Positions 34,904 to 45,263 of a stretch of DNA of 64,000 nucleotides are shown here, piece by piece; position 1 is the first letter of the stretch, and each line of letters starts with the position of its first letter. This stretch comes from Escherichia coli phage AZ21. The notes below the pieces were generated by a model. It did not search any database. It saw only the letters and a program-made list of their open reading frames with translations, and was not told the DNA's origin. Position numbers and translations under genes: made by a program. The DNA lies in sequence record LC788708.1; one strand, 5' to 3'.

Positions 34904-35078
34904 CTGAATGCGAATGATAATGAGAATCATTTGCATTTAAAAAGCGGAATGAGAATGATAATAATTCGCATTTAAGAATGGAAGTGAGAATTATTCAGGA
35001 AGTGAAACGATTCTCATTTAAAAAGTGAAACGATTCTCATTTAGAAAGTGAAACGCGAATGATAATGATTCGTATTTA
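34904..35078. promoter_or_regulatory. array of Fur-box-like AT-rich palindromes (GAATGATAATGAGAATCATT family)
   Basis: At least five overlapping units, incl. tandem AAGTGAAACGATTCTCATTTA x2; related copies at 35413, 35805, 39463. Confidence 0.5.
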
Positions 35079-35290
35079 AGAATGGAAGTGAGAAACACTA
35101 TTATTTAAGTTATCCACAGACTTATCAACAGCACGATTTGACTTGACAGAATCCTAGCCATTTTGAGGCGTTATCAACAGACTTATCAACAGCTTATCCT
35201 ACTGTATAAATATACAGTATTCCTATGCAGTGAATAATTCTAATATACAGCTAAAACGCTCTCAAACGCATTCTAACGCGTTTAATTTTG
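35076..35290. repeat. left arm of about 215-bp imperfect inverted repeat (contains DnaA boxes TTATCCACA / TTATCAACA)
   Basis: Hand alignment with reverse complement of 39121-39336 (shared AAGTGAGAARCACTATYATTTAAGTTATCCACA, CAGACTTATC, ACTGTATAAATATACAG, AAACGCATTCTAACG). Confidence 0.75.
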
Positions 35291-35585
35291 GTGGGGATAC
35301 TAAAACAAGGGCAAAATTGGAGGAGGCTTGAAAATTAGTTAGCTCGCTAATGATCACACACGGCGACACGTAACACCCTAACCATTAGCAGGCTAACCAT
35401 CGCGGGCGTGGTCAAATGAGAATGATTCTCATTTGTGGATTGGGGGCGCTTCCTGATAGTTGCGCCCCGTGATTATTATAGTAGGGGGCAACCGTTACGC
35501 TTTGCCCACTCCCGCCACTCATCTTGGTGCCTAGACTTGCGACGGCGTACTAAAAACCGCTTGTACCAGTGATTAAACCATCGTT

Positions 35586-35789
35586 TCATAAATCCTCCTC
35601 CGGTAGTCGATGCGTGATCTTTTCCTCCTCCCCATAGGAATCCACCAAATACTGATAATAACCATCGTGATCATAAATCACTTTATCATATTCCCCACGC
35701 TCGACCGCTTGCCGATTTTCCAACGTATCAGGCACAAAGAAAGTATCAACGGTAACAGTAGTTTTAGTTACAACAATTTTATCACTCAT
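35586..35789 (-). CDS. small acidic protein
   Basis: Fur-like palindrome overlaps its upstream region. Confidence 0.45.
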   Translation of the reverse strand: MSDKIVVTKTTVTVDTFFVPDTLENRQAVERGEYDKVIYDHDGYYQYLVDSYGEEEKITHRLPEEDL

Positions 35790-35915
35790 AATGCCATCGC
35801 CCCTAGAATGAGAATGATTATCAATATCATTGTGAAGCCATTACCAAATCGTAAACGCTGGGAATGTTTCCCAGCGGTATTATTAGACTTATGGCTTTGT
35901 GTTTTTCGCCACCAG

Positions 35916-36116
35916 CTATTCACGGTAGACGCTCCATCCGTCTAGCTTCCATTCTTCCCCCTTGCGAATATTGAAAAACCAATCATTAAAATTGTAACCA
36001 TCTTCTGACATGATCACGCCGTTTTCTTTCATGTACAAAAATTCATCACTAGTAAAATATTGATTACTAACTTTAAAACCTTGTTTCATTTTTTCTAGTG
36101 CTTCATCTTTAGTCAT
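35916..36116 (-). CDS. small hypothetical protein
   Basis: Start overlaps upstream stop (ATGA). Confidence 0.45.
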   Translation of the reverse strand: MTKDEALEKMKQGFKVSNQYFTSDEFLYMKENGVIMSEDGYNFNDWFFNIRKGEEWKLDGWSVYRE

Positions 36117-36457
36117 TGCGCCACCTTTCGAAACGCTGTTTCAATACTATCCGCAGTGGATTGAATATATGCGCCTTTGAGTATCAGCCGCTCGGTGCAT
36201 ATCTTGCGAAAAATATTAATAAAATCGTCCTCATTTTCTGCGATTAATGCCTCACCCATAACCTGAACGTCGCAAGATGCAAAGGTCAAAAATTGAAACG
36301 CTAGTTCACGGGCAACGACCGCATTGATTTTATAATGCGCCTTGCCTTCATAGATATTAATAACGCCCTTATAAGCTGGCGAAAGCTGATTTAAGTAGTT
36401 TGCTAATAATGCCGGACGGCAATTAGCAACAAAACGATTGCCCTCATAAATAACCAT
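36113..36457 (-). CDS. hypothetical protein
   Basis: GGGAG RBS. Confidence 0.5.
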   Translation of the reverse strand: MVIYEGNRFVANCRPALLANYLNQLSPAYKGVINIYEGKAHYKINAVVARELAFQFLTFASCDVQVMGEALIAENEDDFINIFRKICTERLILKGAYIQSTADSIETAFRKVAQ

Positions 36458-36584
36458 TTGATAGTCTCCCGATTAGATAGCCAGATAATAACATAAAGAT
36501 CCCCAATAAAAGAGGATCATTCTTAAATAAGGTGGCGGTAAAACCGCCAACCATTGCAAGGAGAATAACAATAATGCTTTTCAT
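36446..36584 (-). CDS. small membrane protein (about 46 aa, below track cutoff)
   Basis: Hydrophobic MKSIIVILLAMVGGFTATLF; stop overlaps next start. Confidence 0.3.
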
Positions 36585-36793
36585 AGTACCCCACGAAACG
36601 CAGCGTAAAAGGTGGCAAAGTGTTTAACTGTTTCAGCAATCACGTTGCCGCGCTTATCAAATTTCTTTTCTGTAACACGAAAGGCATTTTTATTACGTGC
36701 TACATATTCGATTTTACAATCTTCCCGCTCGAACGTGTTAACATCCACCAGCTTAAAGCCTTTCGAACGTGCAAGAGAAACGTTGCGGATCAT
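36581..36793 (-). CDS. small hypothetical protein
   Basis: AAAGGGGA RBS. Confidence 0.45.
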   Translation of the reverse strand: MIRNVSLARSKGFKLVDVNTFEREDCKIEYVARNKNAFRVTEKKFDKRGNVIAETVKHFATFYAAFRGVL

Positions 36794-36795
36794 TT

Positions 36796-36978
36796 TTATT
36801 CCCCTTTACTAGTCATGCAGCCCAGCAGATAAGAAAATACAGCGATGCCAGCACCAATAGTAACCATTGGTTTTATATTTACTAAACCGCAATAGGAATC
36901 CTGAATACCATAAGCGGTGGCGAAAAGAGTCAAAATAGCGCCCAAGATACCCGCTAAAATAGCTCGAAAAATAACCAT
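36796..36978 (-). CDS. small membrane protein
   Basis: Two TM helices; GAGGAG RBS. Confidence 0.45.
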   Translation of the reverse strand: MVIFRAILAGILGAILTLFATAYGIQDSYCGLVNIKPMVTIGAGIAVFSYLLGCMTSKGE

Positions 36979-37027
36979 TTGTAATACTCCTCTAGTTAGT
37001 GGGGCGAAAGTAACGCCCCGTTATTAA

Positions 37028-43310: not shown

Positions 43311-43328
43311 TTACAGGAGCTAAATTAA

Positions 43329-43607
43329 ATGGCTATTAAAATTAATCTTCCCAATATTAAAAACACCGCTGATATATGGTCGATTGATACTATATTGCGT
43401 GGCACTGTATACCGTAATTTAAAAGATAATAATTGTTATATTTATCAAAATGAATTAAACGGCCATATTTACATAATCGAGTCCGATGGTTTTTGTTCTT
43501 TTGAGACTGATTATGAAGCGCAAGATCATATACAGGCAAATGATATTCCTGACGTATGGAAAGAAACAAACCTTGCTTTTGTTGTAAGTCTTGAAGCTAA
43601 CAAATAA
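43329..43607 (+). CDS. small hypothetical protein between A1 and A2
   Basis: ORF. Confidence 0.45.
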   Translation: MAIKINLPNIKNTADIWSIDTILRGTVYRNLKDNNCYIYQNELNGHIYIIESDGFCSFETDYEAQDHIQANDIPDVWKETNLAFVVSLEANK

Positions 43608-43645
43608 ATTAAATATCTTATTAAATTAATTGGAGTTTTACAAAT

Positions 43646-44038
43646 ATGAAAAAGCAAAATATTCCATTCGATCGCGCTCAGTCTTCTATTGTTCTGGTTT
43701 ATTCTAATGGTGAGCGTTACCACGTCGAGGCGGGGCACGTTATTGATGAATTATTAGATTTCAATGACGCTTTACAGGTTACTACCTTTGCCTACACGCA
43801 AGGCCGCGCAAGTAGTTACATTAAGGCCGCAGGCGTTTATGTTGACACGGTGAAACAAGAAACGATTATCATCGACGCAGTAAAATCCGGTCTAGCCTTT
43901 GCAGTTGTCGCGCCTTGCCCCTCTTGTCTTGATGATCAGCTAACGAGTGCGAAAGTATACACCTGCGCGGGCATTCGTTCCCATGTATCAGGAGAGGATA
44001 TTAGTTTTATCGCTGATGCGTTGGCTTATGGTCTTTAA
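43646..44038 (+). CDS. A2: A2-like pre-early protein (130 aa)
   Basis: Position between A1 and dmp; size as expected. Confidence 0.5.
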   Translation: MKKQNIPFDRAQSSIVLVYSNGERYHVEAGHVIDELLDFNDALQVTTFAYTQGRASSYIKAAGVYVDTVKQETIIIDAVKSGLAFAVVAPCPSCLDDQLTSAKVYTCAGIRSHVSGEDISFIADALAYGL

Positions 44039-44052
44039 TAGTTGATTTATTA

Positions 44053-44077
44053 TTGCCCGCTGATAGATAGCGGGCAA
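44053..44077 (+). terminator. hairpin TTGCCCGCT..AGCGGGCAA
   Basis: 9-bp stem. Confidence 0.45.
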
Positions 44078-44118
44078 TGCTGGATAAACTACATCCCTTT
44101 AATGGAGAACGTAACAAA

Positions 44119-44853
44119 ATGAATCAAGTTAAAACGAATATTTCCCGTAACTTCCCGCATATTTCCCGCGTCATGATCTGGGATCTTGATGGCACTATCG
44201 TTAATTCATTCCATCGTGTAGCGCCTTGCTTTGATAGTGAGGGTAATCTAGATTTAAATAAGTATAAGAATGAGGCTTGCAAACATGATTTAATAATGCA
44301 GGATACTTTATTGCCTTTGGTGGAATATATGCGCCAATGCATGAATGACGCAAATACTTTAAACATTATTTGTACCGCTCGATTAATGAGCAAATCGGAT
44401 TATTATTATTTGCGCAAACAAGGCTTGCGAGGGCGTGGGGATAGCAATATCCGCGTGTTTTCCCGCGACACGCTGCATAAATATTTTGAAGCTGATAAGG
44501 TTAGCGAGATATACCACAGTAAAGACGCAGTTTATAAATCGTATTACTTTGAATTATTTAAACAGCTATATCCGAACGCTGATTTCACAATGATTGATGA
44601 TCATAAAGGTGTATTATCAGCGGCGGCGTCATACGGATTTAAAACGCTAGACGCGCAAGCCGTTAACGATATTCTATCAATCGGCGTGGCATTGATAGGC
44701 GGAACCTTTATTGATGAATCTCTCGATGATGATAATGATTATCAGTTCCTAGCCGATCGATTGAAATTATGTTGGGAAAGTATGACCGAAGAAGAACGCG
44801 CAGAATATAGTTGCAGCCCGCAACAATATATTGAGAAATTAAAAGTTGCGTAA
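44119..44853 (+). CDS. dmp: 5'-deoxyribonucleotidase, HAD superfamily (244 aa)
   Basis: HAD motif I MIWDLDGTIVNS; start set at the Met with RBS giving 244 aa. Confidence 0.7.
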   Translation: MNQVKTNISRNFPHISRVMIWDLDGTIVNSFHRVAPCFDSEGNLDLNKYKNEACKHDLIMQDTLLPLVEYMRQCMNDANTLNIICTARLMSKSDYYYLRKQGLRGRGDSNIRVFSRDTLHKYFEADKVSEIYHSKDAVYKSYYFELFKQLYPNADFTMIDDHKGVLSAAASYGFKTLDAQAVNDILSIGVALIGGTFIDESLDDDNDYQFLADRLKLCWESMTEEERAEYSCSPQQYIEKLKVA

Positions 44854-44871
44854 TAATTAAAGTTGAAATAG

Positions 44872-44906
44872 TTTCATCCTGCAATTAAAATGGTTGCGGG
44901 ATGAAA
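44872..44906 (+). terminator. 13-bp hairpin after dmp
   Basis: TTTCATCCTGCAA..TTGCGGGATGAAA. Confidence 0.45.
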
Positions 44907-45017
44907 CAATTACCCTGCTAATAGTAACGGGGGTGGCGGTTAGCAGACTAAGTATTCTCCCCCAACCCACTGGACACACCTCCATGTGTAATCCTATGAA
45001 ATTTGGCAAAAGTCAAA

Positions 45018-45263
45018 TTAGCGCATAGAAGGGTCATCAAACCTGTGCTCTGGTCTGAACTCACGGAATCTCTTCCACGACGCCCGAGATCCATCAGACC
45101 ACTCCCGCTCAAACTCCGCACGTTTCTCGTCAAACTTCCGCTCCCTTTCCGCAATCTCTCGCGTCACCCCCGCGATATATTCCCGATGCTTGTTAATTGC
45201 CGCAGTTGTCCCGAAAACTCCCGCGAGTATCCCGATAATAAAAGCAATTACAATACTAAACAT
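45018..45263 (-). CDS. small membrane-anchored protein
   Basis: N-terminal TM; GAGAGGGA RBS on minus strand. Confidence 0.5.
   Translation of the reverse strand: MFSIVIAFIIGILAGVFGTTAAINKHREYIAGVTREIAERERKFDEKRAEFEREWSDGSRASWKRFREFRPEHRFDDPSMR

What the first reader, a model, noticed from the sequence alone, without database searches (positions are those of the whole stretch)
35076..45250. Pre-early (terminal-repeat-like) block sits between early and late genes, implying a collapsed terminal repeat and nearby physical genome ends
A1-like (556 aa), A2-like and dmp lie at 41.6-44.9 kb, and the DnaA-box and repeat locus at 33.8-35.5 kb, between the early region and the llp/RBP/terminase block. 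In T5 these genes occupy the approximately 10-kb direct terminal repeat. The span from about 35.1 to about 45.2 kb matches that length. GC content is visibly higher here than in the flanking AT-rich regions. If so, the physical ends and the injection-stop site are near the two borders.
Basis: partly seen in the sequence, partly recalled or inferred. Interest (0 to 1): 0.55.

Follow-up and report, generated by a model that had tools for sequence, protein, structure and literature searches.

The report
Collapsed T5-type terminal repeat

Summary
The window is 100% identical to E. coli phage AZ23 (LC788707, Tequintavirus, 104,075 bp). The flagged block is the T5 pre-early, first-step-transfer terminal repeat (TR), present once.

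By homology the TR is window 34411..44976 (10,566 bp), not 35076..45250. T5's first base aligns to 44976 and its last to 34411. BF23 (ends set by PhageTerm), Spc35 and MM-1 agree within 1 bp at both ends; MM-2, L6jm and TUMS_E3 also end at 34411.

All T5 repeat landmarks are conserved:
- dmp, A1 and A2 at 96-98% amino-acid identity.
- Eight DnaA/DnaA* boxes in two inverted 132-bp clusters.
- Two DRE and nine DRD repeats.
- The pGCGC nick site.

- The true A2 is 40819-41226. The 130-aa ORF at 43646-44038 is the T5.002 homologue.
- The injection-stop region lies only at the early-gene border, inside the repeat.
- GC exceeds the left flank only (40.2% against 36.5%; right flank 39.8%).

The record holds one TR copy, and its ends overlap by 111 bp, as an untrimmed circular contig would. 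Physical duplication and exact AZ23 ends need reads. This is already-known biology of low interest.

The parts
34411..44976 (-). Single (collapsed) copy of the T5-type long direct terminal repeat, which is the first-step-transfer, pre-early region. It is 10,566 bp, and T5 orientation is the reverse of the window.
   Evidence: T5 position 1 aligns to 44976 and T5 position 121750 to 34411. BF23, Spc35 and MM-1 ends agree within 1 bp. There is one copy only in LC788707.
34410..34411 (.). Junction of the repeat with the early region, and predicted right physical end of virion DNA (the last base corresponds to 34411).
   Evidence: The last bases of T5, BF23, Spc35 and MM-1 all align to the same column...TTTCTGTG(G/T)CTC|TAAAAA. 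L6jm, MM-2 and TUMS_E3 record ends also match at 34411.
44976..44977 (.). Junction of the late region with the repeat, and predicted left physical end of virion DNA (the first base corresponds to 44976 or 44975, read on the minus strand).
   Evidence: T5 base 1 aligns to 44976. BF23 and Spc35 base 1 and the MM-1 right-repeat start align to 44975.
34138..34877 (+). Nine DRD repeats, GTCGGATT(T/C)GCACA. Three copies (34138-34323) lie outside the repeat in unique DNA and six lie inside.
   Evidence: 9 matches against 0.04 expected. This matches T5 Repeat Region 3, which has nine DRD copies and overruns the left repeat by 270 bp.
34879..34880 (+). Homologue of the T5 major single-strand interruption (the '7.9% nick'): ...CACAAAA^GCGCAGGG on the window + strand.
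   Evidence: The T5 nick is annotated at 9748^9749 on the minus strand. Within the 121 bp aligned around it, the 71 columns surrounding the nick are identical. The consensus Pu^pGCGC is given in the T5 annotation. The nick itself is not testable here.
34929..35094 (+). Two DRE direct repeats of about 62-66 bp (34929-34990 and 35033-35094). The T5 blender shear point, which marks the end of first-step-transfer DNA, maps to about 34.93 kb.
   Evidence: Repeat family D2 and a self-match in blastn. T5's DRE1/DRE2 and the shear point at 9618 in DRE2 are described.
35086..35217 (+). IRD'-spacer-IRC' inverted-repeat unit with four DnaA/DnaA* boxes in two pairs, each pair 3 bp apart (35110, 35122, 35171, 35183). 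It is the core candidate for the injection stop signal.
   Evidence: The architecture is as described for 25 T5-like phages.
34480..35604 (-). Region homologous to the T5 feature annotated 'injection stop signal (iss)' (T5 9140-10149).
   Evidence: Annotation; coordinates transferred through the blastn alignments (approximate to a few bp).
35586..38929 (-). Pre-early operon reading toward the iss. It holds homologues of T5.017, T5.015, T5.014, T5.013 and T5.012, and of T5.011 (split into 38138-38929 and 37924-38157). It also holds a 172-aa ORF (37365-37883) and a 66-aa ORF (35916-36116) that T5 lacks.
   Evidence: tblastn against T5 proteins gives 82-100% identity, except the N-terminal part of T5.011 at 48%. 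PHROG and Pfam DUF7566 hits.
39198..39329 (-). IRC-spacer-IRD, the inverted partner of 35086-35217. It carries four DnaA-consensus boxes (39224, 39236, 39285, 39297) and lies in the divergent promoter region.
   Evidence: (76% inverted match). This is T5 Repeat Region 2.
39931..44853 (+). Pre-early operon reading toward the left terminus: T5.009, T5.008, T5.007, A2 (40819-41226), T5.005, A1 (41602-43272), T5.003, T5.002 (43646-44038) and dmp (44119-44853).
   Evidence: tblastn against T5 proteins gives 81.5-97.8% identity with the same gene order as T5. PHROG hits.
45018..49777 (.). Unique late-end flank: small membrane-protein genes (T5.162 and T5.161 homologues), an llp/Cor-type exclusion gene (45859-46125, minus strand), the receptor-binding protein (46211-47968), and the small and large terminase subunits (47979-49777).
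   Evidence: 91.5% nucleotide identity to the annotated MM-1 genes. phrog_1119 hit. T5 layout.
32884..33774 (+). Last early-region gene before the repeat (T5.018 homologue).
   Evidence: 43% aa identity to T5.018. phrog_8583 hit.

Best explanation
The block is the one assembled copy of the long direct terminal repeat of a T5-like phage (E. coli phage AZ23, Tequintavirus).

Predicted virion DNA (inferred). The 10,566-bp segment, window 34411-44976, should be present at both ends. The molecule would be about 114.5 kb. It would start at window 44976, reading leftward on the minus strand, and end at window 34411. Short-read assembly merged the two copies, so the contig runs late genes, then one repeat, then early genes. 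This is also the arrangement in replicative concatemers.

Function, by homology to T5 (established for T5, inferred here). The left copy enters the cell first. Transfer pauses at the injection stop region at the inner end of the repeat, about 34.4-35.6 kb. That region holds the DnaA-box inverted repeat, the DRE and DRD repeats and a nick site. Host RNA polymerase then transcribes two divergent pre-early operons from about 39.0-39.9 kb. A1 degrades host DNA, A1 together with A2 allows transfer of the rest of the genome, and Dmp dephosphorylates dNMPs. At packaging, terminase cuts concatemers at the two fixed sites and the repeat is duplicated.
For: Shown here:
- The window is 100% identical to LC788707.
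- It is co-linear with the T5 left repeat over its whole length, and both T5 ends and both T5 internal junctions map to 44976 and 34411.
- BF23, Spc35 and MM-1 map to the same end positions at both borders; MM-2, L6jm and TUMS_E3 record ends also match at 34411. BF23 ends were determined from reads with PhageTerm.
- The gene order dmp-A1-A2 is kept, with 96-98% aa identity.
- There are 8 DnaA/DnaA* boxes in 4 pairs 3 bp apart, 9 DRD repeats and 2 DRE repeats, exactly as described for T5-like phages.
- The nick-site sequence is conserved.
- The record holds a single copy and is 104,075 bp long, with an exact 111-bp overlap between its end and its start.

From the literature:
- Assemblers place dmp/A1/A2 in odd positions because of the large terminal repeats.
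- Assemblers assign the first base of direct-terminal-repeat phages at random.
- Functions of A1, A2 and dmp.
Against: - No reads or virion DNA were available. Twofold coverage, terminus pile-ups and the second copy in AZ23 itself are therefore not shown.
- One group of relatives (chee24) is annotated with ends 107 bp and 206 bp inside these positions, so annotated ends are not uniform across the genus.
- The 111-bp end overlap of the record lies in a repeat-rich tail-fibre gene and could partly reflect that repeat.
Confidence: 0.93

Rival explanations
1. AZ23 does have a long terminal repeat here, but its ends are not at the T5-homologous positions. They would be tens to hundreds of bp away, as in the chee24-type annotations.
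For: The chee24 record ends map to window 44869 and 34617, which are 107 bp and 206 bp inside the T5 positions. Repeat lengths differ among relatives: 9,573 to 10,407 bp in the relatives, against 10,566 bp predicted here.
Against: - T5, BF23 (PhageTerm), Spc35 and MM-1 coincide within 1 bp at both borders; MM-2, L6jm and TUMS_E3 record ends also match at 34411.
- Sequence around both cut sites is conserved in AZ23.
- The differences in repeat length come from internal insertions and deletions (hegG, extra ORFs), not from shifted ends.
Confidence: 0.05
2. The arrangement is a true unique internal region. AZ23 virions would carry no duplication of this block, for example through circular permutation, headful packaging or different ends elsewhere.
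For: Only that the deposited record shows one copy and is labelled complete.
Against: - Every feature of the T5 repeat, including both junction sequences, is conserved.
- The terminase genes are about 91.5% identical in nucleotide sequence to those of MM-1, which is deposited with two 10.4-kb repeats.
- The record's own ends overlap by an exact 111 bp inside a tail-fibre gene, so they are not physical ends.
- Most deposited T5-like records likewise hold one copy, for example 443 records but only 526 matched places. The Serratia phage Kamaji record has the same layout and is flagged circular.
Confidence: 0.02

Closest known systems
Bacteriophage T5 left/right terminal repeat (first-step-transfer, pre-early region; NC_005859 1-10219 and 111532-121750)
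   Same: - Same gene order and orientation: dmp, T5.002, T5.003, A1, T5.005, A2, T5.007-009, then the divergent operon T5.011-T5.017.
- 82-100% aa identity for most proteins.
- Same three repeat regions, eight DnaA-type boxes, nine DRD and two DRE repeats, and the same nick sequence.
- Same flanks on both sides, and the ends align to the base.
   Different: - 10,566 bp against 10,219 bp.
- No hegG HNH endonuclease.
- An extra 172-aa ORF (37365-37883).
- T5.016 is replaced by an unrelated 66-aa ORF.
- The N-terminal 257 aa of the T5.011 homologue are only 48% identical, and the gene is split by a +1 frameshift in an A7 run.
- All four boxes of the IRC/IRD cluster fit the DnaA consensus.
- Present once in the record instead of twice.
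Escherichia phage vB_EcoS_MM-1 (PV577657), right terminal repeat 107633-118039
   Same: Closest relative in the calls made here that was deposited with both repeats (10,407 bp each). It is 87.7-93% identical in nucleotide sequence across the blocks that align, with the same borders.
   Different: MM-1 is deposited as the linear virion form of 118,039 bp. AZ23 is deposited as a 104,075-bp permuted contig with one copy. Two blocks have no nucleotide match between them (window 35793-36112 and 38365-38939).
BF23 terminal repeats (OR083247, 9,743 bp, ends determined with PhageTerm)
   Same: The ends map to window 44975 and 34411, which gives read-based support for the cut positions independent of T5.
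   Different: The repeat is shorter. Nucleotide identity in the 500 bp at each end is lower (85-89%).

Membership tests
T5-type long direct terminal repeat / first-step-transfer region (Tequintavirus) | An identical copy of the segment at both ends of the virion DNA | not testable with these tools
   Only one copy exists in LC788707. Reads or virion DNA are needed.
T5-type long direct terminal repeat / first-step-transfer region (Tequintavirus) | Segment borders co-linear with determined termini of reference phages | tested here: met
   T5 1/121750 align to 44976/34411. BF23 (PhageTerm), Spc35 and MM-1 agree within 1 bp. chee24 is discordant by 107 and 206 bp.
T5-type long direct terminal repeat / first-step-transfer region (Tequintavirus) | dmp, A1 and A2 in this order from the left terminus | tested here: met
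   dmp 44119-44853, A1 41602-43272 and A2 40819-41226, at 96.3%, 96.2% and 97.8% aa identity to T5.
T5-type long direct terminal repeat / first-step-transfer region (Tequintavirus) | Large untranslated iss region at the inner end: IRD'-spacer-IRC' with paired DnaA boxes, its inverted partner IRC-spacer-IRD, two DRE and nine DRD repeats, with an overrun into unique DNA | tested here: met
   Boxes at 35110/35122, 35171/35183, 39224/39236 and 39285/39297, in pairs 3 bp apart. There are 9 DRD copies, 3 of them beyond the border, and 2 DRE copies. Compare.
T5-type long direct terminal repeat / first-step-transfer region (Tequintavirus) | Injection actually pauses at the iss, and second-step transfer depends on A1/A2 | not testable with these tools
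   This is a functional property, known for T5 only.
T5-type long direct terminal repeat / first-step-transfer region (Tequintavirus) | Flanked by the early region on the inner side and by llp/receptor-binding protein/terminase on the outer side | tested here: met
Assembly with collapsed terminal repeat (circularised contig) | Record length equals unique sequence plus one repeat copy, and the record ends are not physical ends | tested here: met
   The record is 104,075 bp with one copy. It starts inside a tail-fibre CDS, and its last 111 bp are identical to its first 111 bp.
Assembly with collapsed terminal repeat (circularised contig) | About twofold read depth over the repeat, and read-start pile-ups at its borders | not testable with these tools
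   No reads were available. The expectation follows PhageTerm.

The most novel reading that the evidence does not exclude
Sequences resembling the E. coli Fur box (GATAATGATAATCATTATC) are concentrated in the pre-early terminal repeat of Tequintaviruses. The counts are 12 of 14 loci in the AZ23 window and 7 of 8 in the first 62.5 kb of T5. They include the DRE repeats and palindromes of the injection-stop region, and a perfect 15-bp 7-1-7 box about 235 bp from the left terminus. If host Fur, or a phage protein with similar specificity, binds there, it could take part in the injection pause or in pre-early regulation alongside the proposed DnaA binding.
Probability: 0.05. Interest if true: 0.5.

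Novelty: already known. Interest (0 to 1): 0.1.

Why it matters
Practically, the result says how to read and fix this record. The deposited AZ23 sequence is a permuted contig with one copy of the repeat. The virion genome should be about 114.5 kb, starting at record position 78888 (minus strand) and ending at 68323, with 19 pre-early ORFs (18 genes) duplicated. This matters for correct genome length, gene counts, comparative alignments and any engineering of the pre-early region. It does not add new biology, because T5's terminal repeats, two-step injection and the assembly problem they cause are all documented.

Tried and rejected
- Pfam gave no hits for A1, A2, dmp or most pre-early ORFs. 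Identity had to come from PHROGs and direct comparison with T5 proteins.
- No paper on AZ23 or its accession was found, so the sequencing and assembly method is unknown.
- The relaxed DnaA consensus TTWTNCACA is not enriched window-wide (11 found against 8.5 expected). Only the local clustering and pairing are meaningful.
- The generic promoter and terminator scan was barely above the shuffled expectation (43 against 33.7, and 16 against 10.4). I did not use it to place the pre-early promoters.
- chee24 ends do not coincide with the T5 positions. I treated this as annotation or method variance and kept it as a rival explanation.
- The Fur-box-like enrichment seen in AZ23 and T5 was not reproduced in the more distant Serratia phage Kamaji: 1 of 4 loci at 14/19 or better, and 8 of 18 at 13/19 or better, p = 0.12. 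No paper in the searched library links T5 with Fur boxes. I kept it only as a weak side lead.
- I looked for a common sequence at the two cut sites (GGTG^TGTCC and TGTGTCTC^T). They share only TGTGTC in different registers, which is not convincing.
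Full report
**Identity of the window.** A megablast of window 33000-46500 finds a 100% identical match over its full length. The match is Escherichia coli phage AZ23 (LC788707.1), a 104,075-bp Tequintavirus record from sewage in Japan. Window position equals record position minus 33,912. About 500 T5-like records match at 80-93% identity. All AZ23 genes in the region are annotated 'hypothetical protein'.

**Where the terminal repeat really is.** I fetched both ends of phage T5 (NC_005859), whose left repeat is annotated 1-10219 and right repeat 111532-121750, and aligned them to the window.
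- T5 1-5419 aligns to window 44976-39527 on the minus strand.
- T5's last 903 bases align to 35311-34411.
- The T5 left repeat runs on into its early region across window 34411 without a break.
- The T5 late region runs into the right repeat across window 44976 without a break.

Base-level alignments put T5's first base at window 44976 and its last base at 34411. The window therefore contains exactly one repeat unit, 34411-44976 (10,566 bp), in reverse T5 orientation. It is joined on one side to what follows the left repeat in T5 and on the other side to what precedes the right repeat. A merged pair of terminal repeats, or a concatemer junction, looks exactly like this.

**Independent support for the ends.**
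- BF23 (OR083247) has 9,743-bp repeats that were determined from reads with PhageTerm. Its first base maps to window 44975 and its last to 34411.
- Spc35 maps to the same two positions.
- The annotated right repeat of MM-1 (107633-118039, 10,407 bp) has the same two borders.
- MM-2, L6jm and TUMS_E3 record ends also match at window 34411.
- chee24 is the exception. Its annotated ends map 107 bp and 206 bp inside these positions.

**Evidence that the copy was collapsed by assembly.**
- LC788707 has one place matching the block, whereas relatives of 114.5-121.8 kb have two.
- The record starts inside a tail-fibre CDS, and its last 111 bp are identical to its first 111 bp. This fits an untrimmed circular contig, so the record's own ends are not physical ends.
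- Subtracting the overlap and adding a second repeat gives a predicted virion genome of about 114,530 bp.
- Davison notes that many GenBank T5-like entries have dmp, A1 and A2 misplaced because assemblers cannot handle the large terminal repeats.
- The PhageTerm paper states that assemblers assign the first base of direct-terminal-repeat phages at random and that the repeat shows double coverage.
- The Serratia phage Kamaji record has the same layout (early genes, repeat-like block, late genes) and is flagged circular.

**Gene content.** tblastn with T5's pre-early proteins gives the following homologues.

| T5 protein | Window coordinates | aa identity |
|---|---|---|
| Dmp | 44119-44853 | 96.3% |
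| T5.002 | 43646-44038 | 87.6% |
| T5.003 | 43329-43607 | 81.5% |
| A1 | 41602-43272 | 96.2% |
| T5.005 | 41317-41514 | 93.8% |
| A2 (T5.006, 135 aa) | 40819-41226 | 97.8% |
| T5.007, T5.008, T5.009 | 39931-40720 | 86-97% |
| T5.011 to T5.015, T5.017 (opposite strand) | 35586-38929 | mostly 82-100% |

PHROGs agree: A1 hits phrog_1745 'DNA transfer protein' (E 5e-244) and A2 hits phrog_1725 'DNA binding protein'. Pfam found nothing except DUF7566 for the T5.011 homologue.

Differences from T5:
- hegG is absent.
- A 172-aa ORF (37365-37883) is inserted.
- T5.016 is replaced.
- The T5.011 homologue has a divergent N-terminal part (48% identity).

**The injection-stop region.** Davison's comparison of 25 T5-like phages describes Repeat Region 3 at the inner end of the left repeat. 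It contains IRD'-spacer-IRC' with paired DnaA/DnaA* boxes, two 66-bp DRE repeats and nine DRD repeats, and it overruns the repeat by 270 bp. An inverted partner, IRC-spacer-IRD, lies in Repeat Region 2. The window has all of this:
- TTATCCACA, TTATCAACA, TTATCAACA and TTATCAACA at 35110, 35122, 35171 and 35183.
- TTATCCACA, TTTTGCACA, TTTTCCACA and TTATCCACA at 39224, 39236, 39285 and 39297 on the other strand.
- Both clusters form pairs 3 bp apart with 61 bp between pairs, and the two 132-bp units are inverted copies of each other.
- DRE copies lie at 34929-34990 and 35033-35094.
- GTCGGATT(T/C)GCACA occurs nine times at 34138-34877, against 0.04 expected. Three copies lie beyond the repeat border.
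- T5's annotated major nick (9748^9749, minus strand) falls in a stretch of identical sequence. This places the equivalent site between window 34879 and 34880...AAAA^GCGC on the + strand, which fits the Pu^pGCGC consensus.

The T5 feature 'iss' (9140-10149) transfers to about 34480-35604, and the blender shear point to about 34.93 kb. The injection-stop region therefore lies inside the repeat, next to its early-gene border only. Nothing comparable lies at the other border.

**Composition.** The repeat has 40.15% GC. The equal-length left flank has 36.5%, the right flank 39.8% and the whole window 38.95%. 33 of 535 windows of 10.6 kb are at least as GC-rich (profile). The GC contrast is real on the early-gene side only and is small.

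**Mechanism.** The sequence-level identity of the parts is shown here. The rest is inferred from T5:
- The left copy enters first.
- Transfer pauses at the iss.
- Host RNA polymerase transcribes the two divergent pre-early operons.
- A1, a predicted metallophosphatase, is essential and sufficient for host DNA degradation.
- A1 together with A2 permits second-step transfer.
- Dmp dephosphorylates dNMPs.
- Concatemers carry one repeat per unit, and packaging regenerates two.

How the iss stops DNA is still unsettled even for T5. DnaA binding is Davison's proposal, and experimental tests are lacking.

**Side observations.**
- The T5.011 homologue is split by one extra A in an A7 run. IME178 has A6 and an intact ORF.
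- Fur-box-like sequences are concentrated in the repeat: 12 of 14 loci in the window (p about 3e-8) and 7 of 8 in T5 1-62500. Composition-matched control palindromes gave at most 4.
- A perfect TGATAATGATTATCA lies at 44730-44744 and is conserved in T5, BF23, Spc35, chee24 and MM-1.
- AZ23 and T5 are homologous here, so they are not independent samples. The more distant Serratia phage Kamaji shows no such enrichment.
- No paper in the library links T5 with Fur boxes. I regard this as a weak lead.

**Verdict.** The borders, the A2 assignment, the location of the injection-stop site and the GC claim need the corrections above. The feature and the assembly effect are both well documented, so novelty is nil and interest is low. 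The only missing proof, duplication and exact ends in AZ23 virions, needs reads.

Noticed in passing
window 34910-35830 and 44725-44749 (also 37673, 38770, 39462, 40759, 42700, 43428): Fur-box-like sequences (at least 14 of 19 matches to GATAATGATAATCATTATC) are concentrated in the terminal repeat: 12 of 14 loci in the window and 7 of 8 in T5 1-62500. A perfect 7-1-7 box, TGATAATGATTATCA, lies at 44730-44744 inside the 3' end of dmp and is conserved in six Tequintaviruses. The enrichment was not reproduced in Serratia phage Kamaji, and it is not mentioned in the T5 literature I searched.
   Followed up: partly
window 38169-38175 (ORFs 38138-38929 and 37924-38157, minus strand): The T5.011/DUF7566 homologue is split into 263-aa and 77-aa ORFs by one extra A in an A7 homopolymer. 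IME178 has A6 and an intact 334-aa ORF. This is either a sequencing error or a real frameshift. The break coincides with the switch from 48% to 96% identity to T5.011.
   Followed up: partly
LC788707 record ends (L011 1-111, L012 1390-1500), outside the window: The record starts inside a repeat-rich L-shaped tail-fibre gene, and its last 111 bp are identical to its first 111 bp. It is therefore an untrimmed circular contig labelled linear and complete, and the tail-fibre repeat array may itself be mis-resolved.
   Followed up: partly
window 39439-39527, 37365-37883 and 35793-36112: Mosaic differences from T5 inside the repeat. The HNH endonuclease hegG is absent. A 172-aa ORF (phrog_6741) is inserted between the T5.011 and T5.012 homologues. 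T5.016 is replaced by an unrelated 66-aa ORF.
   Followed up: no
window 12768-17218: Only six tRNA genes (Arg, Ser, Met, Leu, Tyr, Met) were found in the early region covered by the window. The T5 record annotates more than 20 tRNA genes in its early region, which suggests a much reduced tRNA cluster in this 104-kb genome.
   Followed up: no
window 34370-34384 and 34421-34448 / 35309-35336: A GC-rich hairpin, GGGCCGAAGGCCC, sits about 30 bp outside the repeat border in unique DNA and is conserved in T5. A 28-nt imperfect inverted repeat brackets most of the iss region, starting 10 bp inside the border.
   Followed up: no
L015 (Serratia phage Kamaji, ON287373) 11446-23450: This more distant Demerecviridae record has the same layout (early genes, pre-early block, receptor-binding protein and terminase) and is flagged circular. 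Its pre-early block is also slightly GC-richer than its surroundings (47.3% against 44.8%).
   Followed up: no
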